A stretch of DNA of 34,145 nt from an uncultured Chloroflexota bacterium (lineage in GTDB: Bacteria; Chloroflexota; Dehalococcoidia; Lucifugimonadales; CAJWER01). This document shows, piece by piece, positions 11,915-34,145 of this stretch. The position numbers were made by a program, and so were the translations under genes. Every line of letters starts with the position of its first letter. Within the stretch, counting starts at the first letter, position 1. Location: contig CAJWER010000003.1 in NCBI GenBank assembly GCA_913030785.1, positions 1 to 34,145 of the forward strand, read 5' to 3'. The notes below the pieces were generated by a model. The model was not told the origin of the DNA and ran no database searches. It was given only the letters and a program-made list of their open reading frames with translations.

Positions 11915-11963
11915 TTTGCTCGCGGTCGATATCGATTATACTGTTGCGAGAAAATTTTCACGA
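11915..11963 (+). promoter_or_regulatory. ctaAB promoter with degenerate Rex-like operator at the transcription start
   Basis: -10 TATACT at 11937-11942; GCGAGAAAATTTTCACGA at 11946-11963 has 4 mismatches to TTGTGAAnnnnTTCACAA. Confidence 0.4.
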
Positions 11964-11978
11964 ACGAGATCAAAGACA

Positions 11979-12974
11979 TTGCTGGCAGCGTTGAAGAGAG
12001 CATTTGGTGGTGGTGATAACGGGGGCAACACAGCCTTCCGAATTGTGATAGTGGCGGCGATTATAGCTGCGGTGGGGCAGGTAGCCCTCGGCGGGGTGGT
12101 CCGGGTGACTGACTCCGGCCTCGGATGTCCCGATTGGCCGCTCTGCCACGGCAGGCTTATCCCGCCCTTTGAGCTGCACACCCTGATCGAATATTCTCAC
12201 CGGCTTTCGGCCAGCACGCTTGGGTTTCTGGTTTTAGCCGCGACGATCATCGTGTGGCGAGACCCCTGGCGCAGTACCTTGGCTGTCGGCGCCACTACCG
12301 GCGCTCTGATTCTGGTGGGTGTGGCAGCGGTCCTTGGCGGCATCACAGTCTTGACCGAGCTTGCATGGTGGGTGGTCCTATTCCACCTCGGAATCGCCGA
12401 GGGGGTGGTCGCGAGCCTCGTAATAGCGGCAGTGGCCGGATGGAGGGGCGGACCTGTCCTGGAGCCGGCCAGGGATGATATCTTTTCCTTGCGTATGCGA
12501 TGGCTGACGGGTCTGGCGCTGGGGGGTACCCTTTTGCTGATCCTATCGGGCTCCTACATGGTGGGGCGGGGTTTTGGCTCTTCGTGCTCTACCTGGCCGA
12601 CGTGTCTGGGCAGTTTGCTGCCCTCGGGAGAGGTCTATATGGTCCACATGTCCCACCGCTACGTCGCAGGGCTCGCTGGGCTGCTGGTGCTGGCGCTGAC
12701 TGCATCAGCCTGGCTTGAGGCGGTCCGGCCCAGCGTCAGGTGGACTACACTGGCTGTCCTGGTGGTGTTTGTGGTCCAGGGTTTGGTCGGAGCCGTGACT
12801 GTGTGGTCGGAGTTTGCGGCGGGGATGAAGGCAGCCCACCTTGCGGTGGCAACCGTCTTGTGGGTCGCGCTCGTGTACGTGGCTATGCTACAAATGCCCG
12901 AGTGGCCTGTCACGAATAGGCGGGCCGAAAGGAACCCGGACCCCGTGTCTGGGCTGGAAGGTGCTAGCTCTTGA
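11979..12974 (+). CDS. ctaA: Heme A synthase (CtaA/COX15 family)
   Basis: GGVVRVTDSGLGCPDWPLCHG, IEYSHR, second Cys pair CSTWPTC, HMSHR and 8 TM segments. Start uncertain (TTG 11979 or 11991; ORF track opens at 11916). Confidence 0.9.
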   Translation: MLAALKRAFGGGDNGGNTAFRIVIVAAIIAAVGQVALGGVVRVTDSGLGCPDWPLCHGRLIPPFELHTLIEYSHRLSASTLGFLVLAATIIVWRDPWRSTLAVGATTGALILVGVAAVLGGITVLTELAWWVVLFHLGIAEGVVASLVIAAVAGWRGGPVLEPARDDIFSLRMRWLTGLALGGTLLLILSGSYMVGRGFGSSCSTWPTCLGSLLPSGEVYMVHMSHRYVAGLAGLLVLALTASAWLEAVRPSVRWTTLAVLVVFVVQGLVGAVTVWSEFAAGMKAAHLAVATVLWVALVYVAMLQMPEWPVTNRRAERNPDPVSGLEGASS

Positions 12975-13858
12975 TTGCTCAAGTGGTGGAGCCACGCGGT
13001 TTGATTCGTGACTACGTTTCACTCACCAAGCCGCGCATCCTGTCGATGCTGCTGCTCACAGCCCTTTGCGCAATGTTTCTGGCCGAGGGTGGGGTGCCGG
13101 AGCTTTCCCTGATTGCACTGGTACTCGGGGGAGGCGCTTTGGCTGCAGGAGGAGCCCACGCCCTCAACCACTACATTGAGAGAGACTCGGACTCGTTGAT
13201 GCGTAGGACCAAGAAGCGTCCTGTGGCCTCAGGGCGTGTATCGCCACAGGAGGCGATGTGGTTTGGGATTGGGCTGAATGTCATCGCGTTCGTTTTGCTG
13301 ACTGTCCTGGTCAATCCGCTGGCGGCGGCCCTGACGCTCAGTGCGACACTTTTCTACGTGTTCGTATACACCATCGCTCTGAAGCGCAAGACGCCTCAGA
13401 ATATTGTGATAGGGGGCGCTGCTGGGGCAGTGCCGCCCCTGGCTGCCTGGGCCGCTGTGACCGGCACCGTGGAGCTGCCGGCTATCTATCTGTTTGCCAT
13501 CATCTTTTTTTGGACACCTCCACACTTCTGGGCCCTGGCACTCATGATTAAGGACGACTATTTGAGCGCAGGCATCCCGATGATGCCGGTGGTGACAAGC
13601 GTTGCGGAGACCAAACGACAGATACTGCTCTACACGTTTATCTTGGTGGCGCTGACGCTGATGTTCGTCACGACATCGGCTGTCGGCTGGTTCTACTTCG
13701 CGACAGCCGCAGGATCAGGACTCGTGTACATCTACTACACGTGGCGGCTCTATAGGCTACCGGAGATCAGTGGAGCGAAGAGCGCGTATTTGTACTCGCT
13801 GTTGTACCTGGCTTTGATATTTGTTGGGGTTGTGGCAGACGTATACGTGAGATTCTAG
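12971..13858 (+). CDS. ctaB: Protoheme IX farnesyltransferase (heme O synthase)
   Basis: LTKPRI, NHYIERDSDSLMRRTKKRP, NIVIGGAAGAVPP, FFWTPPHFWAL; 4-nt overlap with ctaA. Confidence 0.96.
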   Translation: MIAQVVEPRGLIRDYVSLTKPRILSMLLLTALCAMFLAEGGVPELSLIALVLGGGALAAGGAHALNHYIERDSDSLMRRTKKRPVASGRVSPQEAMWFGIGLNVIAFVLLTVLVNPLAAALTLSATLFYVFVYTIALKRKTPQNIVIGGAAGAVPPLAAWAAVTGTVELPAIYLFAIIFFWTPPHFWALALMIKDDYLSAGIPMMPVVTSVAETKRQILLYTFILVALTLMFVTTSAVGWFYFATAAGSGLVYIYYTWRLYRLPEISGAKSAYLYSLLYLALIFVGVVADVYVRF

Positions 13859-13879
13859 CCAGACCCAACGCTGGACGCT

Positions 13880-13945
13880 TTGTGCCATTTGTCACAATCC
13901 GCCCCTCGTGGGTGCTTGACCATTCGTCGATCCGTCTGTTAAATT
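13880..13945 (+). promoter_or_regulatory. Rex-type operator and sigma70 promoter of the oxidase operon
   Basis: TTGTG-CCATTTGT-CACAA at 13880-13897 is an 18-bp TTGTG-N8-CACAA palindrome; TTGACC at 13916 with TAAATT 18 nt later. Confidence 0.65.
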
Positions 13946-14002
13946 CTTGACCGGCGCCCCAGACGTACCGATTTCCCTGGAAGGGAGACCCAGCCCCTAC
14001 CG

Positions 14003-15073
14003 ATGTCAACCACAAGCAGCCGCTCTAAGATTTATCTGGGAGTACTGCTACTACTTTCAACCATTGCCCTGCTGACTGGCTGCACTCCTGACGATCCCCA
14101 GTCGACCTTTGACACCGTAGGACCCGTGTCGCGGTCCCAACTTGTCCTGTTCTACTGGATATTCTGGGCCGCAGTCGTCGTGTTCATCGTCGTCGGCGCG
14201 GTGCTCGCATATACGAGCCTCCGTTTTCGGCGGAAGCCCTCCGACGCCATGCCTCCGCAGACGCACGGTCATACGCCGATGGAGATAGCGTGGACCATCG
14301 TTCCTGCACTGGTCCTGGCCGTCGTGGCGGTGCCGACAGTCCTGACCATTTTTGACAACGCCAACTCGCCTGAGCCCGGCGCCTTGACCGTCGAGGCCGT
14401 GGGCCGCCAGTGGTGGTTTGAGTTCAAGTACCCGCACCCTACCGATCCCGACGAGCAGGTAGTGACTGCCAACGAGCTTCACATACCGGTCGGCGAGGTC
14501 GTCAACATCAACCTCGCGTCGAGGGACGTGCTTCACAGCTTCTGGATCCCGAAAATCGCCGGCAAGGTCGACATGGTGCCCAATAATGCGAATACCATTT
14601 GGATTCAGTCGGACGAGGCAGGGGAGTTCTTTGGCCAGTGCGCGGAGTTCTGCGGCGAGGCACATGCCCTGATGAGGTTCCGGGTGATCGCCGAGCCGCG
14701 GGAGGAGTACGACGCCTGGCTTTTGGCCCAGGCCGAACCGGCGGCGGACGCGGTCGAGCCGTTGGCTGCAGAGGGTCAGGCCCTGTTCGAGGGCAACGCC
14801 GCTGGGTGCTGGGCTTGCCACACGATCTCGGGCTCGGCGAAGTCGCGAGGGTCTGTGGGGCCAAACCTTACCCACGTTGCCAGTCGAGGCCTCATCGCAG
14901 CCGGGATCATAGAGAACGACCAGGCGGGCCTCCGGACATGGCTGACAGATCCCTGCGAGGCGAAGCCAGGTAATGTGATGTGCACAGGTGCAGCGGTGTA
15001 CAACAACCCGGACAAGTCGCTCGACGAGAAGCAAATCTCGGCGCTCGTAGCGTACCTGCGGGGCCTAGATTGA
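14003..15073 (+). CDS. coxB: Cytochrome c oxidase subunit II with fused cytochrome c (caa3 type)
   Basis: Lipobox LLTGC, QWWFEF, CuA ligands HSF...CAEFCGEAHALM, heme c motif CWACH, axial Met in PGNVM. Confidence 0.96.
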   Translation: MSTTSSRSKIYLGVLLLLSTIALLTGCTPDDPQSTFDTVGPVSRSQLVLFYWIFWAAVVVFIVVGAVLAYTSLRFRRKPSDAMPPQTHGHTPMEIAWTIVPALVLAVVAVPTVLTIFDNANSPEPGALTVEAVGRQWWFEFKYPHPTDPDEQVVTANELHIPVGEVVNINLASRDVLHSFWIPKIAGKVDMVPNNANTIWIQSDEAGEFFGQCAEFCGEAHALMRFRVIAEPREEYDAWLLAQAEPAADAVEPLAAEGQALFEGNAAGCWACHTISGSAKSRGSVGPNLTHVASRGLIAAGIIENDQAGLRTWLTDPCEAKPGNVMCTGAAVYNNPDKSLDEKQISALVAYLRGLD

Positions 15074-15143
15074 TGAACTCTCTCTTCACCAAGGGCAGCC
15101 AGGTAACATCAACTATTAGCTACCGAAAAGTCGGAGGCCTAGG

Positions 15144-17012
15144 ATGACAACCATATCGCTTCCTATCCCGAAGCGTCCGGTCCATCCCACCGGTGTTTGG
15201 TCTTGGATCACCACCGTCGACCACAAGCGAATCGGGATCCTGTACGGGGTCACCGCCTTCATAATGTTCATGACCGGCGGGCTCGAGGCGATGTACATCC
15301 GCGCCCAGCTTGCCCGGCCTGGCCAGGATCTGGTTAGCCCCGAGGTCTACAACCAGCTATTCACGATGCATGGCACGACCATGATCTTCCTGGCGATTAT
15401 GCCGATGGGAGCGGCGTTCTTCAACTACATAATCCCGCTGCAGCTCGGCGCCAGGGACGTGGCGTTCCCACGGCTCAACGCCTTCAGCTACTGGACCTTT
15501 TTGGCCGGGGCGCTGATGCTCAACCTTAGCTGGGTCCTGGGCGGGGCGCCCAACGCCGGCTGGTTCGGATACGCTCCTTTGACAAGCAGCGCCTTCAATC
15601 CCGGCGCTGGCATCGACTTCTGGATACTAAGTCTCCAGATACTCGGTATCGCGTCGCTGGCTGCCGCCTTCAACTTCATCGTGACCATCATTAATATGCG
15701 GGCTCCAGGCATGTCACTCATGCGAATGCCCCTGTTCACCTGGATGACGCTGATAACCTCGTTCCTGCTGATCCTGGCGTTCCCGGTGATAACCGTTGCG
15801 CTGATACAGCTCCTATTTGACCGTCAGTTTGGGGCCAACTTCTTCGTGCCCGGGGCCGGCGCGAGCCCGGTGCTCTGGCAGCACCTGTTCTGGATATTTG
15901 GCCATCCGGAGGTGTACATTCTGATCCTGCCCGCGATGGGGATCGTCTCGGAAATTATCCCGACGTTTTCGAAGAAGCCGCTATTTGGCTATCCGGTGGT
16001 TGTCCTGTCAGGCTTGGTGATCGGATTCATGGGGTGGATGGTCTGGAGCCACCACATGTTTACGGTGGGACTGGGGCCGGTGGCGAACTCGGTCTTCGCC
16101 CTCACCACCATGGCGATAGCGGTGCCCACGGGGGTCAAGATATTCAACTGGATGGCCACTATGTGGCGGGGTTCTATCGATTTCAAGACGGCCATGCTCT
16201 TCGCGGTGGGATTCATCTGGCTGTTCATCATCGGTGGCCTAAGCGGTGTAATGCACTCGTCCGCCGCCTCCGATGCACAGCAGCAGGACACATACTTCAT
16301 CGTCGCCCACCTGCACTACGTTCTCTTCGGCGGGAGCATCATGGCGCTGCTGGGCGGAATCTACTATTGGTTCCCCAAGTTCACCGGCCGCCTCATGGAT
16401 GAGACCGTAGGGAAGATCAACTTCTGGCTTGTGTTCATCGCCATGAACATCACCTTCTTCCCAATGCACTTCACCGGACTCAACGGGATGCCCCGTCGGA
16501 TCTATACCTACGACTCGGGCATGGGTTGGGACCTATGGAACGCGGTCTCTTCTGCGGGCGCGTTTATGCTGGGTGCGGGGATACTCTTGTTCCTGTACAA
16601 CGCGATCAAGAGCGCCAGAAGCGGCGAGATCGCGTCGGCTGACCCCTGGGACGGCCGCACGCTGGAGTGGTCCATCTCCTCACCGCCGCCGGAGTACAAC
16701 TTCGAGCAGATCCCGGTGGTTCAGGGGCGTGACCCGTTCTGGGCCCAGAAGTACGAGGGCGTTGCCATGGTTCCGGTCGCGGGAGGCTCGGGTGAAGATG
16801 GTGGCCATTCGATACATCTGCCACAGCCATCCTATTGGCCGTTCGTGGCCTCCATAGGCATATTCATCGGCAGCTTTGGCGTCCTATACATCAACGCCGC
16901 GTCCTGGATCGGGGTGGCTGTTGCAGTGATCGGCGCATTAATCACGATGATCGCCGTCTATGCCTGGTCCCTGGAACCTGTCAATGACCCTGACGATGGC
17001 GCAGCATACTAA
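15144..17012 (+). CDS. ctaD: Cytochrome c oxidase subunit I, A1 type
   Basis: DHKRIG, TMHGT, FGHPEVY, WSHHM, AHLHY, GMPRR; two extra C-terminal TM helices after IHLPQPSYWP. Confidence 0.97.
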   Translation: MTTISLPIPKRPVHPTGVWSWITTVDHKRIGILYGVTAFIMFMTGGLEAMYIRAQLARPGQDLVSPEVYNQLFTMHGTTMIFLAIMPMGAAFFNYIIPLQLGARDVAFPRLNAFSYWTFLAGALMLNLSWVLGGAPNAGWFGYAPLTSSAFNPGAGIDFWILSLQILGIASLAAAFNFIVTIINMRAPGMSLMRMPLFTWMTLITSFLLILAFPVITVALIQLLFDRQFGANFFVPGAGASPVLWQHLFWIFGHPEVYILILPAMGIVSEIIPTFSKKPLFGYPVVVLSGLVIGFMGWMVWSHHMFTVGLGPVANSVFALTTMAIAVPTGVKIFNWMATMWRGSIDFKTAMLFAVGFIWLFIIGGLSGVMHSSAASDAQQQDTYFIVAHLHYVLFGGSIMALLGGIYYWFPKFTGRLMDETVGKINFWLVFIAMNITFFPMHFTGLNGMPRRIYTYDSGMGWDLWNAVSSAGAFMLGAGILLFLYNAIKSARSGEIASADPWDGRTLEWSISSPPPEYNFEQIPVVQGRDPFWAQKYEGVAMVPVAGGSGEDGGHSIHLPQPSYWPFVASIGIFIGSFGVLYINAASWIGVAVAVIGALITMIAVYAWSLEPVNDPDDGAAY

Positions 17013-17026
17013 CGGAGCCTGTTAAT

Positions 17027-17644
17027 TTGGCCGAAGCAACCGCGGCAATACACGCAGAGCACGAAGAGACCTCCACGGGTCTGAATAGCAGGAAGTTGCT
17101 CATGTGGGCCTTCCTGGGTTCAGACTGCATGTTCTTTGGCTCGCTCATCGCGACATACGTGGTCTACCAGGGAAAGAGCCTCAAGGGCCCGTTCCCTGAA
17201 GATGTATTCAGTATCCCTGTCACGTCTGTGAGCACATTCGTGCTGCTGATGAGCAGTATGAGTATGGTTCTGGCCTACGCGGCGCTCAGGCAGGGGAGTA
17301 TCAAGTCGTTCCGCATCTGGATATTCTCGACGGCGATCCTGGGCATGACCTTCCTGGGCTTTCAGGTCTTCGAGTTCCGGGACTTTGTGCACGAGGGTCT
17401 GACACTGAAGACCAACCTGTTCGGAACGACCTTCTTTACCCTGACGGGGTTCCACGGCGCCCACGTTACGCTTGGAGTGATCTGGCTGCTTTCCCTGGGA
17501 TTCCACTCCTTCAAGGGCGGAATAACACCCGATAATCACCTTGACGTCGACTTGGCAGCGCTGTACTGGCATTTTGTGGACGTTGTTTGGATCATCATAT
17601 TCACAGTGGTGTACCTGTTCGGGGTGTTCCCCGGGCTAAATTAG
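17027..17644 (+). CDS. ctaE: Cytochrome c oxidase subunit III (short 5-TM form)
   Basis: WAFLGSDCMFF, LTGFHGAHV, LYWHFVDVVW; TTG start after GGAG. Confidence 0.95.
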   Translation: MAEATAAIHAEHEETSTGLNSRKLLMWAFLGSDCMFFGSLIATYVVYQGKSLKGPFPEDVFSIPVTSVSTFVLLMSSMSMVLAYAALRQGSIKSFRIWIFSTAILGMTFLGFQVFEFRDFVHEGLTLKTNLFGTTFFTLTGFHGAHVTLGVIWLLSLGFHSFKGGITPDNHLDVDLAALYWHFVDVVWIIIFTVVYLFGVFPGLN

Positions 17645-17743
17645 TAGTGATGTACTGAGGGAGATGGTTCCGACCTGATCTCTCGATGGCGAGACCTCCG
17701 AGCAGACGGTTTCAGGACGGCAGCGTAAGGAAGCAAGCGCGAC

Positions 17744-18064
17744 ATGGCACAAGAACCAGGAACAGAAGCACAGGGAGCAGCGGTCCATACGGGGCACCCA
17801 ACGCCTTTCACCTATTTCAAGGTGGCGATGATCCTGTCGACTATTACCGCCGTTGAGGTCGGTATTTTCTACATTGAGGATCTGGGGAAAGGGATCATAC
17901 CGATCCTCGTTGTCCTCTCCGCCGCTAAGTTCGCGCTAGTCGCGATGTTCTACATGCACCTGCGGTACGACTCTCGGATATTCACTGGGCTGTTCGTCGG
18001 GGGCATCGCCCTGGCGATCTCCGTCACCCTTGCGGTTCTGGGGCTGTTCCAGTTCTTCGTATAG
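17744..18064 (+). CDS. ctaF: Cytochrome c oxidase subunit IV (caa3 type)
   Basis: ITAVEV and KFALVAMFYMHLRYD motifs, 3 TM helices, operon position. Confidence 0.88.
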   Translation: MAQEPGTEAQGAAVHTGHPTPFTYFKVAMILSTITAVEVGIFYIEDLGKGIIPILVVLSAAKFALVAMFYMHLRYDSRIFTGLFVGGIALAISVTLAVLGLFQFFV

Positions 18065-18098
18065 CGACCAACGGCGAGGTCGAGGAGGAGCGTACCAC

Positions 18099-18929
18099 GT
18101 GGCGGGGTCGATCTGGTTTCATTGGCATGCCCACCCTGACGCTCTGATCGGTCTGGCGATCGTCCAAGGCCTGTATCTCTTTGGAGTTGGTCCTTTGAGG
18201 CAGAGATACGGCCTCGCCGAGAGTGTCGAACCGCGGCAGGTTGCCACCTTTACGGTTGGCATCATGGTCATCTTCGTGGCGCTGCTTTCGCCACTTCATG
18301 TCCTGAGCGACAGCTACCTGTTCAGCGCCCATATGGTTCAGCACGTGTTGCTGACCCTGGTGGCGCCCCCGTTGCTCATACTGGGCACACCGGATTGGCT
18401 GGTGCGCCGTATCTTGCGGCCCGATCCCTTATTCATCGCCGCCCGCATCGTCACTCACCCGATTGTGGCGATCGTCCTGTTCAACATCATTTTCTCCCTC
18501 TTTCACATGCCCTCGCTGTATAACGTGTCAGTGACGAACCACCTGATCCACATTGTGGAACACCTCGTATTCATAGGCGCTGCGTTGATAATGTGGTGGC
18601 CGCTCGTTAGCACCATGCCAGAGCTACCGCGTCTCTCGTACCCACTTCAGATGGTGTACCTGTTCGGCATGTCGGTGGCCCAGATCGTGGTATTCGGGCC
18701 GGTGACTTTCTCGCAGGAGCCGTTATACCAGTGGTACGTCGATGCGCCACGGCTGTGGTCGCTTACGGCCCTGTCGGACCAGCAAATTGGCGCAGTGATC
18801 ATGAAGGTGGGTGGAGGCGTTCTGTTCATGACGCTGCTGATTGTCGCTTTCTATCGTTGGTACAAGAGTGCGGAAGAGGAGACCGAGCCGGAGCCAGATT
18901 CCCGTGAGCTCTCTCTCCAGCGACACTAG
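18099..18929 (+). CDS. ctaG: caa3-type oxidase assembly factor CtaG
   Basis: GTG start at 18099 after GAGGAGGAG; LFSAHMVQHVLL...APPLL, DQQIGAVIM. Confidence 0.9.
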   Translation: MAGSIWFHWHAHPDALIGLAIVQGLYLFGVGPLRQRYGLAESVEPRQVATFTVGIMVIFVALLSPLHVLSDSYLFSAHMVQHVLLTLVAPPLLILGTPDWLVRRILRPDPLFIAARIVTHPIVAIVLFNIIFSLFHMPSLYNVSVTNHLIHIVEHLVFIGAALIMWWPLVSTMPELPRLSYPLQMVYLFGMSVAQIVVFGPVTFSQEPLYQWYVDAPRLWSLTALSDQQIGAVIMKVGGGVLFMTLLIVAFYRWYKSAEEETEPEPDSRELSLQRH

Positions 18930-28119: not shown

Positions 28120-30981
28120 GTGAAGTATCCATTGAGAACTCTGTCCATCGTAGTGGCTCTGGGGCTGCTGGTGGCTGCCATAGCGGCAGGCCCGGCCTTT
28201 TTAGGGTCACAGCCGGTGGAAGCCGCGACGGTAACCATCGCTGAGAACGACGTCGAGTTCGCCACGGCTGCCGGCGTTGATGTCAGCTCCGCCAAGCCGA
28301 ACTCGACGAGCACGATCTTTATCCGCGACGATGCCCTTGAGACCACCAAGAGTGGTACTGCGGTGTTCAGCGGAATCCCGACGGACTCGAAATTCTTTGA
28401 TATCGCCAACGGTGAGGCGGGTCCTACCGCGGCTAGCTCGACGGCATCAGGTGTGACTGTAGTGCTGACGGCGGCAGATTATGCCTCGTCTTCACCTAGC
28501 ACCACGCCGTTAACGGGCAACCCGACCGCCGTGGTCGGAACGGCCTCTTCTTTCGTCGTCGGCTCTGACGTGGATGCTGGAACGTTCACCGTCCTCGTGG
28601 CCGCTAACGCCACGACCACCGGTACCTTCTCGTATCACGTTCAGGACGTGTGGACCGGTACCGATTCCACTTTGCGGCGGGCCAAGATCATCAGTACCTC
28701 CGACCCCGCGGGCGAGTACGTCACCGTTACTGAGGTAGCGTCGGCCACCGACTCCACGGGCTCTGCAACGTCCAGAGTATTCAGCGGCCTCGTGTTCTTG
28801 TCCTCTGACGCGGCGACCCAGGGCACCAACAGCGACGGCGTGTGGGTACAGGACGCCGACACCCTGACGGTTCAGTACTTGGACTCTGCGGGGACGGTAG
28901 TGGACAGCGACACCGTGACCATTGACGGCGTCAAGCCCACTATCGCGGCAATCGTACCGGCGGACGGGAACGTTACCAACGTGGCGAACCCGACTGTCAC
29001 CTTTGACGTAACTGACTCGGGCTCAGGGATCTCGACGACCAACTTCGCCACCGACCTGACCTTGGCGATCAATGGGACAGCGGTCACGAACATCTCGTTC
29101 CAGGCCATCGCGGACGGGTTCCGAGCCATCTATGCCTCAGGCGTAGCTTGGACGACGGCGACTACTACTCTTGGTGGCTTTGCCATCACGGATAGCACGG
29201 AATTTAGCTTGACGATTACCGCTACAGACCAGGCGGGTAATACCCAGACGGTGGAGACCACCGCTGCTAACATCACGATTGACAAGACCGCTCCGGTCCT
29301 GTCGTCTGCCTCAACAGGCGCGGCGAATACAGCCATCGTGGTGACCTTCAGCGACACCGTGGGACTTGACGCAACGACAGTCGCTGCGTCCGACTTTACA
29401 ATCTCCGGCGGCGTGACCGTATCCGCCGCTGCGGTGGATGCCGACAACAAGAACGTGGTCAATCTGACAGTCTCCGCTATGGCTTCCGATTTGAAGCCAA
29501 CGGTTACAGTGTCGGGCGTTAGCGACACGGCCGGTAACGCGGTCGCTGCCGCCTCTGTGGTGACCGCTACTGACGGTGTGAAGGCTGTCCAGTCTTCAGT
29601 CACCGTTGACAAGAGTCTGGCCATTTTGGCCGATGTGGTGACGACCTCCCTCGGCACTGACGAGAAGATGGCCGTTGACTGGCCCATAATCACGTTCAAC
29701 GGTCCGAGTGGAGCGACCAACAACGGTGCGCTCACTGTGACGTCGCCAACGCCGAACAACTTTGAGGCCGCGGCAACGGTTGTTGCTGGCGATACGACGG
29801 GAACCTTCGGTGTAGCCATCCAGTCCAAGGATCTGGGTAACAACCTGACCGACAACTTGACGGATGTCACGGCGGAGACGCCGAGCATCAGCGGCGCGGT
29901 CCTGACGCTAGCTAACGGCCCTCTAGGTGACACAGACTTCAATGGTACCGTAGGTGCATCCGATGTCACCGTGTTCATGAACGCGACGACTACTGGCGTA
30001 CCATCGATTAGTGCCATTGACGCGAGTGCTAGGACCATCACCCTCGCGAGCCCGGCAACATCGACCGAGGCTTGGACGGTCACGTACAGCTATACGACGG
30101 ACACGGTCGAGATTGATCAGTCCGCCCCTACGGTGACCTTCGACCCCGATGGCACGGCGAGCGTGCAGAACCAGTCGCCGTTTGTCCGCCTCGTCTTTGA
30201 TGAGGATGAGTACCCCGGTGACAGCTACAAGACGGTAACGCTGACAAAGGCCTCGCTTACCGATCCGGCTGGCGTAGTCTCGGACGTCCTAGCCAGCTTC
30301 TCGACCGGTGACAACATTGAGTTCATCTGGTCGGCCACCGACTTGGCCTTGGGCGCCTACACCTTGAAGGTGAGCGCCACGGACACGGCGGGCAACGCCC
30401 TGACCGATGCTACTGGCACGTTTACCATAGCGAAGCGCACGGTTTCGCTGGCTATTAGGCCGGGCTGGAACCTCGTGTCCCTGCCCGATTCGCCGGCAGC
30501 GTCCGCAAACGGCGTGAACGACGTGTTCAGCTCCGATAAGATTGACGTGGTGCTTAGCTACGACGCGATTCGGAACAACTGGTTCAGCGCGACGCGGCAG
30601 TCAGATGGCACCCTGGGCAGGCCTGGTAGCGGCCTCGCTCTCGACACTGTGGCAACCGGCAAGGGCTACTGGGTCCATTCGACGGCGGTTGTATCGCTGA
30701 CGGTAGACGTACCTGGCCTCGCGCCGGGAGCGCCCGCACAGCCGCCGAGCTTTGCACAGACGAGGGGCTGGAACCTGGTGTCCTACACGACATCGGACCT
30801 GAGCGTGACCACGATTGATGTAGACAGCTACTTCACCGGCCTCGATTGGTCGAGGGCCTTTGGTTACGACAACGCGACGAACAAGTTTACGAGCCTGCTG
30901 CCGGATACTGCGGACACGGTGGCTCTGGGCAAGGCATACTGGGTATTCCTGAACAAGGCCGGTACGCTAGTTCCCCCGTAA
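28120..30981 (+). CDS. Large secreted Thr/Ala/Ser/Val-rich Ig-like repeat protein, probable S-layer or major surface protein
   Basis: Sec signal ending VEA|A; no Cys; acidic; three DxAGN Ig-like motifs; duplicated C-terminal GWNLVS...YWV module; own promoters and strong terminator. Confidence 0.7.
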   Translation: MKYPLRTLSIVVALGLLVAAIAAGPAFLGSQPVEAATVTIAENDVEFATAAGVDVSSAKPNSTSTIFIRDDALETTKSGTAVFSGIPTDSKFFDIANGEAGPTAASSTASGVTVVLTAADYASSSPSTTPLTGNPTAVVGTASSFVVGSDVDAGTFTVLVAANATTTGTFSYHVQDVWTGTDSTLRRAKIISTSDPAGEYVTVTEVASATDSTGSATSRVFSGLVFLSSDAATQGTNSDGVWVQDADTLTVQYLDSAGTVVDSDTVTIDGVKPTIAAIVPADGNVTNVANPTVTFDVTDSGSGISTTNFATDLTLAINGTAVTNISFQAIADGFRAIYASGVAWTTATTTLGGFAITDSTEFSLTITATDQAGNTQTVETTAANITIDKTAPVLSSASTGAANTAIVVTFSDTVGLDATTVAASDFTISGGVTVSAAAVDADNKNVVNLTVSAMASDLKPTVTVSGVSDTAGNAVAAASVVTATDGVKAVQSSVTVDKSLAILADVVTTSLGTDEKMAVDWPIITFNGPSGATNNGALTVTSPTPNNFEAAATVVAGDTTGTFGVAIQSKDLGNNLTDNLTDVTAETPSISGAVLTLANGPLGDTDFNGTVGASDVTVFMNATTTGVPSISAIDASARTITLASPATSTEAWTVTYSYTTDTVEIDQSAPTVTFDPDGTASVQNQSPFVRLVFDEDEYPGDSYKTVTLTKASLTDPAGVVSDVLASFSTGDNIEFIWSATDLALGAYTLKVSATDTAGNALTDATGTFTIAKRTVSLAIRPGWNLVSLPDSPAASANGVNDVFSSDKIDVVLSYDAIRNNWFSATRQSDGTLGRPGSGLALDTVATGKGYWVHSTAVVSLTVDVPGLAPGAPAQPPSFAQTRGWNLVSYTTSDLSVTTIDVDSYFTGLDWSRAFGYDNATNKFTSLLPDTADTVALGKAYWVFLNKAGTLVPP

Positions 30982-31027: not shown

Positions 31028-31068
31028 AAAGCCTCCCTCCTCCGTCATGGGGAGGGAGGCTTTTTTTT
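31028..31068 (+). terminator. Strong intrinsic terminator of the S-layer-like gene
   Basis: AAA-GCCTCCCTCC...GGAGGGAGGC followed by T8. Confidence 0.92.
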
Positions 31069-31078
31069 GAGGAGCAAG

Positions 31079-33010
31079 ATGAGGGGACAGATTGTGGTGC
31101 GGCCAGTAGTGGCGTTTGTTGTGGCGGCGATTGCCGTCAGTGTTCTCGTTGAGGCCGCCATTGCGCAAGTGCCACCCATCCCTGCGATCTATTCGGGCAC
31201 AGCGACTGTTGGAGGCCAACTGGTTCCCGATGGTCAGTTCATCATTGGAAGGGTCGGAAACTACGAATCCGATCCGGCTTTCGTGCGTAGTGGGGCTTTC
31301 GACCTGGTCGTGGCTCCGCAAGACTCGAGTCTGATCAACCAAAAGTTGTCGTTTTTCCTCAGTGGCCAGGTTGAAGCGGACCGAACAGTTAATTTTGTGC
31401 CAGCCTCGGTAGATTTGGACTTTGATCTGGTATTTTCGAAGCTACCTGACCCGACGCCGACCCCGACCGCGACCCCTACGGCCACGCCGCGGACGGCGCC
31501 AACCATTGTCTATTCTGGTTCGATCATCGTTGCGGGAGGTGACGTACCCCCGGGGGCAACACTGGTGGCGAATTTGGGATCCTACCAATCAACTTCAGCC
31601 TCTATTGAAGGAAACAACTACAGGGCTTTGGTCGTTGACCCGCGGGACGGAGAACTGCTCGGTGAGCTGATTGTCTTTACGCTTAATGGATTCTCGGCTA
31701 CACAGGGTGTGACTTACGAAGAGGGCGGCCTGAGCCGCACTATGGATTTGATATTTATTGGATTGTCAGCGCCGACTCCGACATCCACTCCTTCACCTGT
31801 GGCGACGCCGACCCCAACTGCGACGCCTACACCCGTGCCGACACCTCCGGGAATTTTCATTTCTCCATCTGCAATTTCCGTTAATGAGACTGGTACGGGA
31901 AATGTTGGCACATTCACAGTGGCCCTTAATAGCCAGCCGACATCGGAAGTTGTCCTAGCTTTAACGCCGTCTGATTTAAGTGAGCTAACGACTAGCCCAA
32001 ATACAGTGACGTTCACGCAGAACGACTGGGCAGATGGACGAATTATTACTGTTTCTGGGGTTTTTGATGGCGTTAGTGACGGTAATCAGCTTGCTGAGAT
32101 TGAAATTTCAGTGGCCGAGAGTTCAAGCGCAGATGAATATGACAATGTTGGTTCTTCGGTAGTCGATGTTACTATCTTCGACGTTCCATGCGAATCGTCA
32201 GAAGGGTGCTGTGCTTCGCCATCTGCCCCGACACCTACACCATCGGTAGATTTTATAATTGGAGAGGAGGTTTCGGGCGATCTTTCTGTTGTTGGCGAGA
32301 TAGATATTTGGGAGTTCTACGCTGAATCAGAATCTCCGGTCGATATTTACATGTGGACACCTTTAGATGGAGTGCATGTTGATACTCTAGTTCGTTTGAG
32401 AGACCCGAATGGTCGTGAGGTTGCGTCAAATGACGATCGGAGTAGTGCCGTGGAACAAGCATTTACAGAGGGGATACTCAGCGTAGAGCCGTTTGGTCCG
32501 TATAACTCCGCTATTCTTCGTTTTAATCCTTCAGAAACCGGGGTTTATAGTTTATATGCCGGTTCATATGCGAATAGAGACCAGGGTGATTATCTTTTCA
32601 AGGTAGTTTGCGCACTCCCCCCGCCTCCTATTGAGGTACTTCCCATTTCGGTTGGAGAGGAAGTTTCGGGTGATTTGACCAGAAGCGGTGAAACAGACGA
32701 ATGGGCTTTCGAAGCGATAGCGGGTTCATCCGTAACTATTTATATGTGGACTCCAGTAGGTGGGCGATTCGTAGACACTTATTTGAGATTGAAGAACCCT
32801 GAGGGTATGCAAGTGGTATATAACGACGATTTTAGTTCCGCGGTTAACCGTGCCTTCGAGGATGGGTTATTGGCTGTCGGTCCAACGGGTTCGTTAAACT
32901 CAGCTATTATAGAACACCCTATATTGACGACCGGTATTTATACGATTGTTGCCGATACATATAGGAACGTAGGGATCGGGGATTACCGAATTAAATTGAT
33001 AACGCCGTAG
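31079..33010 (+). CDS. Modular secreted surface protein: two N-terminal beta repeats, Pro/Thr linkers, Calx-beta/Ig-like domain, two PPC-like domains
   Basis: ATG at 31079 after GAGGAG; signal peptide AIA|Q; IYSGTATVGG and VYSGSIIVAGG repeats; (PT)n linkers; FTVALNSQPT...TFTQNDW; two GEEVSGDL...DT..RL..P.G.....NDD repeats 393 nt apart. Confidence 0.75.
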   Translation: MRGQIVVRPVVAFVVAAIAVSVLVEAAIAQVPPIPAIYSGTATVGGQLVPDGQFIIGRVGNYESDPAFVRSGAFDLVVAPQDSSLINQKLSFFLSGQVEADRTVNFVPASVDLDFDLVFSKLPDPTPTPTATPTATPRTAPTIVYSGSIIVAGGDVPPGATLVANLGSYQSTSASIEGNNYRALVVDPRDGELLGELIVFTLNGFSATQGVTYEEGGLSRTMDLIFIGLSAPTPTSTPSPVATPTPTATPTPVPTPPGIFISPSAISVNETGTGNVGTFTVALNSQPTSEVVLALTPSDLSELTTSPNTVTFTQNDWADGRIITVSGVFDGVSDGNQLAEIEISVAESSSADEYDNVGSSVVDVTIFDVPCESSEGCCASPSAPTPTPSVDFIIGEEVSGDLSVVGEIDIWEFYAESESPVDIYMWTPLDGVHVDTLVRLRDPNGREVASNDDRSSAVEQAFTEGILSVEPFGPYNSAILRFNPSETGVYSLYAGSYANRDQGDYLFKVVCALPPPPIEVLPISVGEEVSGDLTRSGETDEWAFEAIAGSSVTIYMWTPVGGRFVDTYLRLKNPEGMQVVYNDDFSSAVNRAFEDGLLAVGPTGSLNSAIIEHPILTTGIYTIVADTYRNVGIGDYRIKLITP

Positions 33011-33107
33011 GAACTAAGTAAAAGTCTGAGCCTTGTTTGGCGCGATTTCTAATGGAACTTCAATCTCTAGTTGGTGTCGATACTAGAGGTAAGAGTATCA
33101 ACGTACG

Positions 33108-33116
33108 TGATATACT
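33108..33116 (+). promoter_or_regulatory. Extended -10 bacterial promoter upstream of the archaellin gene
   Basis: TGA-TATACT inside an imperfect palindrome centred on ACGTACGT; the region is AT-rich, so a chance match is possible. Confidence 0.4.
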
Positions 33117-33243
33117 TGATAGGCTTAGTTATATTCCTATTGGCCGGCCTTTAAGCCTATATTCTGGTTCAGAAACTTTAGTAATTCTTGTTGTAATTGG
33201 TCCGAGGTTAACGCGGATGCAGATTAAGGAGAGGTTATTTTCG

Positions 33244-33891
33244 ATGGTTGACGGTTGTTTAAAAAAGACATTTTCTCGGTTTTGTAAAGATAGGTCAGGA
33301 ATCACAGGGTTGGAAACAGCCATTGTTTTAATAGCCTTCGTAGTCGTGGCGGCAGTATTTGCGTTTACTGTTCTTACGACTGGACTGTTCACATCAGAAA
33401 AAGCAAAAGAAACTGCTTTAGCTGGCGTAGCCACGACATCCTCGTCCATGACTATTAAAGGCAATATTATCGCTCGAGCAACGGCAGGGGCTAATCCAAC
33501 TGTTGAGGTCGTACGCGTGAAAGTGGCTACTGCAACAGGCGTGGAGCCAGTACTATTTGACCCTGAACAGATTTTGGTTACATATCAGGACGATAATAAC
33601 GTCGAGCAGCTTGCCTATCCTGGAGGGGCAACAGGCGTAATAACCACTGCAGCAACTGTAACAGCGTGTAAGAATAGAACTACACACACTTGGTGTTACG
33701 CTCGTGATGGAGCTGATTTATTGTTAGACCCGGGTGAAGTTAACGAACTGTATATATTCGTGGACGACCTTGCGACAAAGCTAGGGGCGAATAAGCAATT
33801 CACTGTAGAGATAATCCCACAAGATGGAGCAGTACTTAAATTTGAACGGAGGACTCCGCTTAGCTTATCTCCGGTGATGAACTTAAATTAA
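33244..33891 (+). CDS. Archaellin (archaeal-type flagellin, ArlB/FlaB family), 215 aa
   Basis: ATG at 33244 after AAGGAGAGG; class III signal peptide KDRSG|ITGLETAIVLIAFVVVAAVFAFTVLTTGLFTSEK with Glu at +5; LVTYQD, DLLLDPGE and FTVEIIPQDGA.L..ERRTP C-terminal motifs. Confidence 0.93.
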   Translation: MVDGCLKKTFSRFCKDRSGITGLETAIVLIAFVVVAAVFAFTVLTTGLFTSEKAKETALAGVATTSSSMTIKGNIIARATAGANPTVEVVRVKVATATGVEPVLFDPEQILVTYQDDNNVEQLAYPGGATGVITTAATVTACKNRTTHTWCYARDGADLLLDPGEVNELYIFVDDLATKLGANKQFTVEIIPQDGAVLKFERRTPLSLSPVMNLN

Positions 33892-33941
33892 ATATATTGG
33901 TAAGTCTGCTCGTATATTCAATTAAATAGCTGTTCGGTATT

Positions 33942-33975
33942 ATTTAGCCGGGATAAGAATCTATTCCGGCTAAAT
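33942..33975 (+). terminator. Stem-loop downstream of archaellin (attenuating terminator or mRNA stabiliser)
   Basis: ATTTAGCCGGGATA-agaatc-TATTCCGGCTAAAT, 14-bp stem with one G-U pair, then TGTTT. Confidence 0.6.
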
Positions 33976-34016
33976 TGTTTAGACAGATCAAATGGTAATT
34001 ACAACAGAGGTATGGA

Positions 34017-34145
34017 ATGGTTCGTTCAGATGGAAGGCAAGATGATCGGCTTGAATCGCTTGAGTTAGAGTTCAATCTTCTTAAAACGGAGATTAGACAA
34101 ACCTTAATTGACGTAAAAGAGTTCGTCATGAAAGGAAGGTCAGTA
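34017..34145 (+). CDS. Partial coiled-coil protein, probable archaellum accessory protein (possibly ArlC/D/E-like), truncated by window edge
   Basis: Manual translation MVRSDGRQDDRLESLELEFNLLKTEIRQTLIDVKEFVMKGRSV, open to the end; GAGGT SD; directly follows archaellin. Family assignment rests on recall and context only. Confidence 0.55.
   Translation, partial: MVRSDGRQDDRLESLELEFNLLKTEIRQTLIDVKEFVMKGRSV

What the first reader, a model, noticed from the sequence alone, without database searches (positions are those of the whole stretch)
33244..34145. Archaeal-type flagellin gene, likely the start of an archaellum operon, in a bacterial chromosome
Seen: a full archaellin with class III signal peptide (G|ITGLETAIVLIAFVVVAAVFAF) on the same DNA as bacterial gyrA, rho and recA, followed by a hairpin and a coiled-coil ORF. 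Known: archaellins form the filament of the type IV pilus-related rotary archaellum (ArlF/G/H/I/J, peptidase ArlK/PibD), and archaellum clusters have been reported in some Chloroflexota, so the phenomenon is rare but not wholly undescribed. Inference: this bacterium uses an archaellum acquired across domains, with the motor genes just beyond the window.
Basis: partly seen in the sequence, partly recalled or inferred. Interest (0 to 1): 0.9.

Follow-up and report, generated by a model that had tools for sequence, protein, structure and literature searches.

The report
Archaellin gene on doubtful contig end
A genuine archaeal-type flagellin gene, of a kind already described in marine Chloroflexota bacteria, sits at the very end of this assembled contig, but the piece that carries it was probably joined to the rest by an assembly error.

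Summary
The gene is real. 33244-33891(+) encodes a 215-aa archaellin: PF01917 scores 97.5 bits over the full length, all 7 PDB sequence matches are archaellins, and the predicted fold is an archaellin fold. 34017-34145 is the start of the conserved second gene of an archaellum operon. In 13 related marine contigs the order continues with arlF/G-like, arlH, arlI and arlJ.

The kind is already published, for SAR202 isolates in 2023 and for 244 Chloroflexota clusters plus a filament structure in 2025.

The link to the gyrA-rho backbone is doubtful.
- GC3 falls from about 0.72 to 0.39 at 31.80-31.85 kb, inside a Pro-Thr linker of ORF 31067-33010.
- That ORF is a hybrid of two protein families. Each has intact natives elsewhere, and none of 112 database relatives covers more than 60% of it.
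- Other assemblies end in this linker, or continue leftward into sequence unlike the window.
- The 93%-complete MAG holds no arlF/G/H/I/J and no cheW.
- The window's ArlB sits in a clade that contains no ArlB from the order's genomes.

My estimate is about 0.6 that the last 2.3 kb is a mis-join and about 0.3 that it is a true low-GC island. recA is not in the window.

The parts
31067..31804 (+). 5' part of a backbone-type surface-protein gene: signal peptide, domain A, Pro-Thr linker, domain A', and the start of a second Pro-Thr linker.
   Evidence: GC 0.55-0.57, GC3 0.58. It is 84% identical to P0005 (377 aa), whose own continuation is a long Pro-Thr linker plus a C-terminal membrane anchor. 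Homologues in 17 of 20 relatives: the strong matches all lie within residues ~2-284, in ORFs of roughly 340-460 aa; weaker ones (31-40% id) hit 250-390 in giant proteins.
31805..31850 (+). Pro-Thr-linker stretch (TPTPTATPTPVPTPPG) in which the two gene types meet. This is the suspected mis-join.
   Evidence: The GC step falls here. Contigs of runs X1, X5 and X10 match the window only from 31803-31805 rightwards, and carry 15-38 further letters to the left that are unlike the window. Contigs L036 and L037 begin in this linker. The same-genus contig G001:C2 ends in it.
31851..33010 (+). 3' part of a gene of the archaellum-locus lineage: one beta-rich domain followed by two PPC-like domains. Its native form starts with an archaellin/ArlG-like N-terminal domain that is missing here.
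   Evidence: GC 0.44-0.49, GC3 0.39. It is 96% identical to P0002, 79% to P0003 (568 aa, with an archaellin-like N-terminus), 84% to L036 and 79% to L037. PF04151 PPC scores 20.8 bits, below the cut-off. The related N-terminal domains match PF01917 weakly, at 26-29 bits.
33107..33135 (+). Promoter-like site GTGATA-17-TATATT upstream of arlB.
   Evidence: This is a consensus scan only: 1 site found against 2.5 expected from shuffles. It overlaps a 21-nt block (33095-33115) identical in the window, L036 and L037. Function is inferred.
33244..33891 (+). arlB, the archaellin (215 aa). Class III signal peptide with predicted cleavage G19|I20, a hydrophobic N-terminal helix and a C-terminal beta-sandwich.
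   Evidence: The closest relatives are L036 (92% identical) and L037 (88%).
33942..33975 (+). Conserved 14-bp stem-loop between arlB and the second gene. It may be an attenuator or a transcript-stabilising element.
   Evidence: It was not scored as an intrinsic terminator, because there is no T run. The role is inferred.
34017..34145 (+). First 43 codons of the second gene of the cluster (~230 aa in relatives). It has an N-terminal coiled coil and, in full-length relatives, a conserved C-terminal domain. It occupies the position that arlCDE holds in archaeal clusters.
   Evidence: It is 93% identical to L018 and 100% to L036 over the part present. No family match was found: 0 of 16 members hit PF04659 or PF05377 at E <= 1. 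The only lead is an Atlas cluster at 0.88 in which 20% of members carry PF04659.

Best explanation
The last 2.3 kb of the contig (about 31.8-34.1 kb) carries the 3' part of an accessory gene, a complete archaellin gene (arlB), and the first 43 codons of the next gene. These belong to an arl2-type archaellum locus of marine Chloroflexota (Dehalococcoidia/SAR202-like).

In its native setting this locus continues with arlF/G-like, arlH (KaiC-like regulator), arlI (motor and assembly ATPase), arlJ (membrane platform), a zinc-ribbon protein and a two-component pair. A prepilin-type A24 peptidase lies nearby.

The archaellin would be cut after Gly19 by that peptidase and polymerised through its hydrophobic N-terminal helix into a filament. 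ArlI/ArlJ assemble and rotate the filament with ATP. This mechanism is inferred from the family and was shown experimentally only in archaea and in Litorilinea aerophila.

The attachment of this piece to the 60%-GC gyrA-rho backbone is most likely an assembly artefact. Two different genes that both contain Pro-Thr-linker repeats were joined in frame at 31805-31850. The piece therefore comes from another, lower-GC population, or less likely from another place in the same genome. The MAG cannot be said to possess an archaellum on this evidence.
For: Identity of the gene:
- PF01917 at 97.5 bits over the full length.
- 7 of 7 PDB sequence matches are archaellins. The best is 9i5h_C at E 2.3e-24, and that chain starts at the residue aligned with I20.
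- The AlphaFold model has pLDDT 81.3, with helix 23-65 followed by a beta-sandwich.
- All listed Foldseek matches at E <= 0.001 (24 counted; near-duplicate chains are omitted from the list) are archaellins or the ArlF/ArlG stator proteins. The top two are the A. pernix and L. aerophila archaella.

Operon:
- In L018 the genes after arlB are the ~230-aa second gene, an ArlF-like gene, ArlH (254 bits, cut-off 194), ArlI (643 bits, cut-off 550) and ArlJ (339 bits, below the cut-off of 570).
- Among the 24 metagenome loci of 3.5 kb or more, arlB is followed by the second gene in 20. ArlH and ArlI follow in all 13 that reach that far.

Mis-join:
- GC falls from 0.53-0.64 to 0.38-0.49 at about 31.85 kb, inside ORF 31067-33010. 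GC3 is 0.62-0.79 in 22 backbone genes, 0.58 in the ORF's 5' part, 0.39 in its 3' part and 0.36 in arlB.
- The ORF is a hybrid. Residues 1-~236 match P0005-type proteins, whose natives end in a long Pro-Thr linker plus a membrane anchor. Residues from 'PTPVPTPPG' onward match P0003-type proteins, whose natives begin with an archaellin-like domain.
- None of 112 relatives in the 5.8-billion-protein collection covers more than 60% of the ORF.
- In 17 of 20 relatives the strong matches all lie within residues ~2-284; weaker matches (31-40% id) hit the 250-390 domain in giant proteins.
- Contigs of X1, X5 and X10 that carry the low-GC piece continue leftward into linker sequence unlike the window from 31803-31805. 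In X5 both the backbone and the tail are about 99-100% identical to the window.
- L036 and L037 start in this linker and G001:C2 ends in it.
- None of the other locus genes is in the MAG, and there is no CheW.
- The phylogeny is discordant. GyrA is 91/70/69/58% identical to G001/G017/G015/G037 and 54% to G041. ArlB is 68% identical to G041's and at most 48% to any of the 43 order genomes that have one.
- In the tree, the window's ArlB sits in a starred clade of 54 rows: 52 metagenome contigs, the window itself and G041's L018. None of the 16 rows from sampled genomes (15 same order, 1 same class) is in it.
Against: - No raw reads of the source sample were laid. Logan contigs break at repeats by construction, so their failure to cross the linker proves nothing.
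- The frame is kept across the join.
- Run X5 holds both parts at near-identity, so one genome could hold both.
- G000 has at least one genuine internal low-GC island: C20:3.2-5.7 kb at 0.44, flanked by 0.58-0.61 on both sides. Low GC alone is therefore not a sign of chimerism.
- A second MAG, G041, shows the same mismatch: bulk contigs at 53-57% GC (its C1 stretch reads 36%) and an archaellum contig at 46%. Lower-GC archaellum islands inside higher-GC genomes may be real.
- G000 carries an archaellin N-terminal remnant at native GC on C47 and an A24 peptidase on C6. Archaellin-type proteins are thus not alien to this lineage.
- The rest of a 45%-GC island could simply have been left out of a 60%-GC bin.
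Confidence: 0.6

Rival explanations
1. The join is real. A low-GC archaellum island, or a truncated part of one, was acquired by this 60%-GC Chloroflexota genome by recombination within Pro-Thr-linker repeats of a surface-protein gene. The motor genes lie just beyond the contig end and were not binned.
For: - The ORF stays open across the join.
- X5 holds both parts at about 99-100% identity.
- X1 and X10 contigs run about 1.6 kb past the window end.
- G000 has real internal low-GC islands.
- G041 shows the same GC mismatch between its bulk contigs and its archaellum contig.
- There is an archaellin remnant on C47 and an A24 peptidase on C6.
- ArlB relationships are discordant with GyrA, which transfer would also explain.
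Against: - The island would start in the middle of a gene. It would lack the 10 kb or more of conserved upstream locus genes seen in L040, L052, L057 and L060.
- The hybrid protein has no counterpart among 112 relatives.
- In X5 the tail's left flank differs from the window.
- No other island gene is in the bin.
Confidence: 0.3
2. The tail is archaeal contamination: a fragment of an archaeon's genome joined to, or binned with, a bacterial contig.
For: The family is archaeal in origin. Control genomes that ring for PF01917 are all archaea.
Against: - arlB is preceded by a bacterial-type Shine-Dalgarno sequence.
- The nearest genome-assigned relative is in a MAG labelled Dehalococcoidia.
- Related loci carry bacterial-style HisKA_3 kinase and response-regulator genes.
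- Same-order bacterial genomes have clusters inside megabase contigs, for example G015:C1, 1.39 Mb.
- Published work places such clusters in Chloroflexota (PMC12488501, PMC10444878).
Confidence: 0.04
3. An orphan archaellin-like pilin that works without an archaellum motor, for example as an adhesive filament assembled by a type IV pilus machine.
For: - No arlH/I/J in the MAG.
- PilB-like ATPase fragments lie on C262 and C266.
Against: - The gene and its downstream neighbour are collinear with complete arl clusters at 88-100% identity.
- The PilB-like genes look truncated, and no T2SSF platform gene was found.
Confidence: 0.03

Closest known systems
Archaellum gene clusters of marine SAR202 bacteria ('Candidatus Lucifugimonas marina'; Lim et al. 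2023, PMC10444878; I read the abstract and passages only)
   Same: Both come from marine Dehalococcoidia-type Chloroflexota. Both have arlB followed by arlG/F, H, I and J, with an A24-type peptidase candidate in the genome.
   Different: - The isolates have six tandem flaB copies plus six scattered ones. The window's lineage shows one arlB directly before the second gene, with archaellin-like accessory genes upstream.
- ArlB from the sampled genomes of the window's own order is at most 48% identical.
- I could not compare directly with the isolate sequences, which are not named in the collections I searched.
Litorilinea aerophila bacterial archaellum (Sivabalasarma et al. 2025, PMC12488501; PDB 9i5h; I read the abstract and passages only)
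   Same: - It is the best PDB sequence match (E 2.3e-24) and the second-best fold match (E 7.3e-13, 32% identity).
- It shares the class III signal peptide, with the mature end at the aligned Ile.
- The paper describes an arl2-type order with arlCDE-like genes.
   Different: - It belongs to a different class (Caldilineae).
- That filament is experimentally shown to exist and to drive swimming. Nothing is shown for the window's gene.
- The second gene here matches no ArlCDE Pfam model.
Euryarchaeal (Methanotecta) arl2-type archaellum
   Same: The families ArlB, ArlF/G, ArlH, ArlI and ArlJ are shared, as is the archaellin fold. The published phylogeny derives the Chloroflexota clusters from this group (PMC12488501, passages).
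   Different: - The host is bacterial, with bacterial ribosome-binding sites.
- The neighbouring genes differ: a zinc-ribbon protein, a kinase with a cyclic-nucleotide-binding domain, and PPC-domain fusions.
- I built no tree that includes named archaeal sequences.

Membership tests
Archaellin (ArlB/FlaB, Pfam PF01917) | Matches the family model above its curated cut-off over its full length | tested here: met
   97.5 bits against a cut-off of 29.5, profile positions 1-161 of 162. 7 of 7 PDB sequence matches are archaellins.
Archaellin (ArlB/FlaB, Pfam PF01917) | Class III signal peptide with a cleavage site before a conserved hydrophobic N-terminal helix | tested here: met
   TIGR02537 scores 29.3 bits against a cut-off of 20. 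G19-I20-T-G-L-E-T-A-I is invariant in 26 sequences. I20 aligns with residue 1 of the mature chain 9i5h_C. Cleavage itself was not tested.
Archaellin (ArlB/FlaB, Pfam PF01917) | Fold: a long N-terminal alpha-helix plus a C-terminal beta-sandwich | tested here: met
   AlphaFold2 model with pLDDT 81.3, helix 23-65 and then nine strands. Foldseek ranks 1-17 are archaellins, with TM 0.49-0.59 by query length.
Archaellin (ArlB/FlaB, Pfam PF01917) | Encoded in a genome that also has arlH, arlI and arlJ | tested here: not met
   In G000 (93.5% complete) there is no ArlI match, no T2SSF/ArlJ match, and no tblastn match to ArlF/G, ArlI or ArlJ of L018 (ArlH gave only a weak 34% hit on C10) or to ORFs of 8 related loci. 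The feature is met in related loci. The gene lies at the contig end, so this absence is weak evidence.
Archaellin (ArlB/FlaB, Pfam PF01917) | A prepilin-type (A24) signal peptidase is present | tested here: met
   PF01478 matches at G000:C6:9224-9886(-), 37.6 and 28.7 bits. Whether it is the archaeal PibD type or the bacterial PilD type was not tested.
Archaellin (ArlB/FlaB, Pfam PF01917) | Forms a rotating filament that drives swimming | not testable with these tools
   This needs microscopy and genetics.
arl2-type archaellum operon | Gene order arlB, arlCDE-like, arlG/F, arlH, arlI, arlJ in one locus | tested here: inconclusive
   The window ends 43 codons into the second gene. The order is complete in 10 related loci; in 3 more (L038, L048, L055) arlJ is cut by the contig end. 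The window is collinear with L036 and L037 up to its last base.
ArlC/D/E (Pfam PF04659, PF05377), for the second gene | Matches the family models | tested here: not met
   0 of 16 members match at E <= 1. Only an Atlas lead at 0.88 points to a cluster in which 20% of members carry PF04659. The assignment rests on gene position and on the published statement that Chloroflexota clusters hold arlCDE homologues.
Bacterial type IV pilin | Best matches are type IV pilins or the N-methylation motif family | tested here: not met
   PF01917 is the only Pfam family at E <= 0.1. No pilin appears among the PDB sequence matches or the fold matches at E <= 0.001.

The most novel reading that the evidence does not exclude
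A 20-kb or larger archaellum locus with its own lower GC (43-50%) is a mobile island. It moves between distantly related marine Dehalococcoidia: hosts with 54% GyrA identity share 68% ArlB identity. The window would then capture one real integration, made by recombination between Pro-Thr-linker repeats of surface-protein genes. That would make linker repeats the entry point for a whole motility machine.
Probability: 0.12. Interest if true: 0.55.

Novelty: new member of a known kind. Interest (0 to 1): 0.2.

Why it matters
Archaella in bacteria were a surprise when first reported, but they are now documented for SAR202 and many other Chloroflexota, and this gene adds only one more sequence.

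The practical value lies elsewhere.
- It is a caution. A striking 'cross-domain' gene at the end of a MAG contig was probably attached through a low-complexity Pro-Thr-linker repeat. Trait calls such as 'this species is motile' should not be made from it.
- It points to a diverse marine clade of archaellum loci. There are 57 metagenome loci whose composition differs from the bins they are placed in, and that difference deserves a proper linkage test.

Tried and rejected
- **Contig cover across the join.** None of the listed pieces of X1, X5, X6 or X10 spans 31804/31805, and 16 further pieces were not shown. X5 has no cover over about 31.28-31.80 kb. Logan contigs break at repeats and drop rare variants, so this is no evidence of absence. 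I do not use contig depths (X1 8.2 against 2-3; X10 12.6 against about 20; X5 3-5 on both sides) to rank the two parts.
- **Identity pattern.** The tail is 99.9% identical in X1 and X6, while the pieces on 28-31.7 kb are only 91-96% identical there. This may merely reflect a variable surface-protein gene, so I treat it as a weak hint only.
- **Search for the backbone gene's true 3' end in G000.** 5 of 844 contig ends are rich in Pro/Thr. Of the three Pro-Thr-linker ends I translated (C282, C109, C195; the two poly-Pro ends C78 and C88 were not), none shows the expected membrane anchor.
- **Search for other parts of the island in G000.** There were only hits on the C3 tail and an NHL-repeat similarity on C210.
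- **Low GC as such.** I rejected this as proof, because C20 holds an internal low-GC island and several other contig ends are low in GC.
- **Host of the tail's lineage.** The order sample (401 genomes) gave a best ArlB identity of 48%. The class sample (401 genomes) gave one other hit, at 43%. The host was not found. These are samples and do not show absence.
- **Second gene as ArlCDE.** There is no Pfam or NCBIfam match.
- **Intrinsic terminator after arlB.** The stem-loop was not scored as one.
- **Tree with named archaeal archaellins.** I did not build one, because no named archaeal sequences were available to me. I rely on the published trees, of which I saw passages only.
- **Supplementary and source-data files.** The files of PMC12488501 (list of 243 genomes) and PMC10444878 were closed, so I cannot say whether this MAG or its clade is already listed there.
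- **Taxon of G000.** It is inferred and was never read from a name. The grounds are marine runs, relatives with archaellum clusters, and 54% GyrA identity to a MAG labelled Dehalococcoidia.
Full report
**What is in the sequence**

The window is the whole contig C3 (34,145 bp) of a MAG with 422 contigs. The MAG is 3.2 Mb, 93.5% complete, 8.0% contaminated and 59.7% GC.

ORF 33244-33891(+) gives a 215-aa protein, preceded by AAGGAGAGG nine bases upstream. Several independent tests identify it as an archaellin.
- It matches Pfam Arch_flagellin at E 1.3e-27, 97.5 bits against a cut-off of 29.5, over profile positions 1-161 of 162. That is the only Pfam family at E <= 0.1.
- It matches the archaellin/pilin N-terminal model TIGR02537 above its cut-off.
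- All 7 PDB sequence matches are archaellins. The best, 9i5h_C (E 2.3e-24), begins at the residue that aligns with I20, which fits cleavage after G19.
- An AlphaFold2 model from 26 aligned relatives has pLDDT 81.3 and shows a helix at 23-65 followed by a beta-sandwich.
- All listed Foldseek matches at E <= 0.001 (24 counted; near-duplicate chains are omitted from the list) are archaellins or the related ArlF/ArlG stator proteins. The list is led by the A. pernix and L. aerophila archaella.

So the gene is an archaellin and not a type IV pilin.

**Start of an operon**

The open-ended ORF 34017-34145 is 93% identical to the start of a 230-aa gene that follows arlB in L018, a contig of a MAG labelled uncultured Dehalococcoidia. 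In L018 the next genes are:
- an ArlF-like protein;
- ArlH (254 bits, cut-off 194);
- ArlI (643 bits, cut-off 550);
- ArlJ (339 bits, below the cut-off of 570);
- then a zinc-ribbon protein, a response regulator and a kinase with a cyclic-nucleotide-binding domain.

A metagenome scan gave 57 loci with ArlB relatives at 26-92% identity. I examined the 24 loci of 3.5 kb or more and left the 33 shorter ones aside. arlB is followed by the same second gene in 20 of the 24. ArlH and ArlI follow in all 13 that reach that far. The long loci also hold an A24 peptidase (54 bits) and archaellin/ArlG-like accessory genes upstream.

The window is collinear with L036 (ArlB 92% identical) and L037 (88%) through its last base. 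This includes a 14-bp stem-loop at 33942-33975 whose stem is invariant and whose loop varies.

The second gene matches no ArlCDE model: 0 of 16 members at E <= 1. Its assignment rests on position and on an Atlas lead.

**Known or new**

The kind is published. For the first two papers below I saw the search listing, abstract and passages; for the last two, the listing and the start of the abstract only.
- Lim et al. 2023 (PMC10444878) reported archaellum clusters (flaB copies plus flaGFHIJ) in cultured SAR202, and flaB in 40 of 212 Dehalococcoidia genomes. No filaments were seen.
- Sivabalasarma et al. 2025 (PMC12488501) reported 244 complete clusters in 3,780 Chloroflexota genomes. They describe arl2-type order with arlCDE homologues, a cryo-EM structure and motility in L. 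aerophila, and a single transfer from Methanotecta-type archaea.
- A 2026 preprint and a 2026 Frontiers paper extend this work.

In my own samples, PF01917 is found in 6 of 41 relatives including G000. An ArlB relative is found in 44 of 401 genomes of the order including G000. G015 has a full cluster inside a 1.39-Mb contig at 60-66% GC.

**The join at 31.8 kb: composition and the hybrid ORF**

GC is 0.55-0.63 along the contig to 31 kb, and 0.53-0.57 from 30.8 to ~31.9 kb. It drops to 0.38-0.49 from about 31.85 kb to the end. GC3 is 0.62-0.79 in 22 backbone genes, 0.39 in 31850-33007 and 0.36 in arlB.

The step lies inside ORF 31067-33010, at its second Pro-Thr linker. The two halves of this ORF belong to different proteins.
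- Residues 1 to about 236 are 84% identical to P0005 (377 aa). They have homologues in 17 of 20 relatives whose strong matches all lie within residues ~2-284, in ORFs of roughly 340-460 aa; only weaker matches (31-40% identity) hit the 250-390 domain, in giant proteins. The complete natives read: signal peptide, domain, linker, domain, long Pro-Thr linker, C-terminal membrane anchor.
- Residues from about 259 on are 96% identical to P0002 and 79% to P0003 (568 aa). P0003 natively starts with an archaellin-like domain followed by a Pro-Thr linker. These residues are also 84% and 79% identical to the gene upstream of arlB in L036 and L037.
- Of 112 relatives found in the 5.8-billion-protein collection, none covers more than 60% of the ORF.

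**The join at 31.8 kb: other assemblies and genome content**

- L036 and L037 begin in this linker. The syntenic contig of the same-genus genome G001 ends in it; its GyrA is 91% identical and gyrA lies about 25 kb away, as in the window.
- In four public marine runs, the contigs carrying the tail match the window only from 31803-31805 rightwards. In X1, X5 and X10 they carry 15-38 further letters of linker that differ from the window. In X5 both backbone and tail pieces are otherwise about 99-100% identical to the window.
- The X1 and X10 contigs run about 1.6 kb beyond the window's end.
- The MAG holds no other gene of the locus: no ArlI, no ArlJ-type platform, no ArlF/G and no ArlH. It has no CheW.

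**Discordant relationships**

GyrA of the window is 91, 70, 69 and 58% identical to that of G001, G017, G015 and G037 (same genus or order), and 54% to that of G041, the MAG of L018. ArlB behaves the other way. It is 68% identical to G041's and at most 48% to any of the 43 other order genomes with a hit, with 0 of 14 hits in the window's own family.

I built a tree of 70 ArlB rows, after dropping rows with fewer than 170 aligned residues. The window's protein pairs with L036 and L037 inside a starred clade of 54 rows. That clade holds 52 metagenome contigs, the window itself and L018. None of the 16 rows from sampled genomes (15 same order, 1 same class) is in it (midpoint root, for drawing only).

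**What speaks for a real join**

- The frame stays open across the join.
- X5 holds both parts.
- G000 has a real internal low-GC island on C20, and several other contig ends are low in GC.
- G041's bulk contigs are 53-57% GC (one, C1, reads 36%), while its 16-kb archaellum contig is 46% throughout. The mismatch therefore recurs, and the locus may be an island with its own composition.
- G000 carries an archaellin N-terminal remnant at native GC on C47 and an A24 peptidase on C6.
- A 45%-GC continuation would easily be missed by a binner.
- I could not lay raw reads of the source sample.

**Verdict**

The archaellin and the operon start are confirmed, and they belong to a known kind. gyrA and rho are on the contig; recA is not, as it lies on C386.

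I put about 0.6 on the tail being mis-joined at the Pro-Thr linker. Within that, another population is more likely than another locus of the same genome. I put about 0.3 on a true low-GC island and a few percent on other readings. The claim that this bacterium swims with an archaellum is not established by this window.

Noticed in passing
G000:C47:12896-13087 (-), outside the window: There is a remnant of an archaellin gene at native GC (0.55). It has a class III signal-peptide motif and about 35 conserved N-terminal residues, after which similarity is lost and the frame runs into a convergent gene. Similar short or split PF01917 matches occur in the relatives G005:C4 and G002:C88. This suggests decay of archaellins in this family.
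   Followed up: partly
L052, L040, L057, L060 (10 kb either side of arlB): The archaellum locus of the marine clade is 20 kb or more and is conserved beyond arlB-arlJ. Upstream it holds several archaellin/ArlG-like genes, some fused to extra domains, an A24 peptidase, and an NDH-2-like oxidoreductase with a cyclic-nucleotide-binding domain. Downstream it holds a zinc-ribbon protein, a response regulator and a kinase with a cyclic-nucleotide-binding domain.
   Followed up: partly
L037:2987-5215, L036:3937-4983, L018:2394-3224: In these loci the ArlF-like stator gene is fused to tandem cadherin-like/Big_9 repeats. It reaches more than 740 aa in L037 and is still open at the contig end. It is only 176-192 aa in other loci of the same clade.
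   Followed up: no
G041 contigs C1 (L106) and C33 (L117): The MAG that holds L018 is compositionally mixed. Its bulk contigs are 53-57% GC, its largest contig (sampled over 20 kb) is 36% GC, and its archaellum contig is 46% GC.
   Followed up: partly
G000:C262:432-1583 and G000:C266:2275-3357: Two PilB/GspE-like ATPase genes match only the first 126-149 positions of the T2SSE model and then break off, one of them with an in-frame TGA. No T2SSF platform gene was found in the MAG.
   Followed up: partly
G000: C17:18.9-22.0 kb, C47:1-1.7 kb, C82:1-1.0 kb, C112:0.7-2.2 kb, C80:0.25-2.9 kb, C20:3.2-5.7 kb: There are further stretches of 31-47% GC in the 60%-GC MAG, most of them at contig ends. Only the one on C20 is flanked by normal composition on both sides.
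   Followed up: partly
window 28120-30981 (+): This ORF encodes a 953-aa Thr/Ser/Ala-rich secreted protein with only weak Ig-like-domain matches. Pieces of related strains in runs X1, X6 and X10 differ by 4-9% here, so the gene appears variable.
   Followed up: no
window 11916-18929 (+): A haem-copper oxidase gene set lies here: heme A synthase-like, heme O synthase, CoxB, CtaD and CtaG. It points to an aerobic lifestyle for the backbone organism.
   Followed up: no
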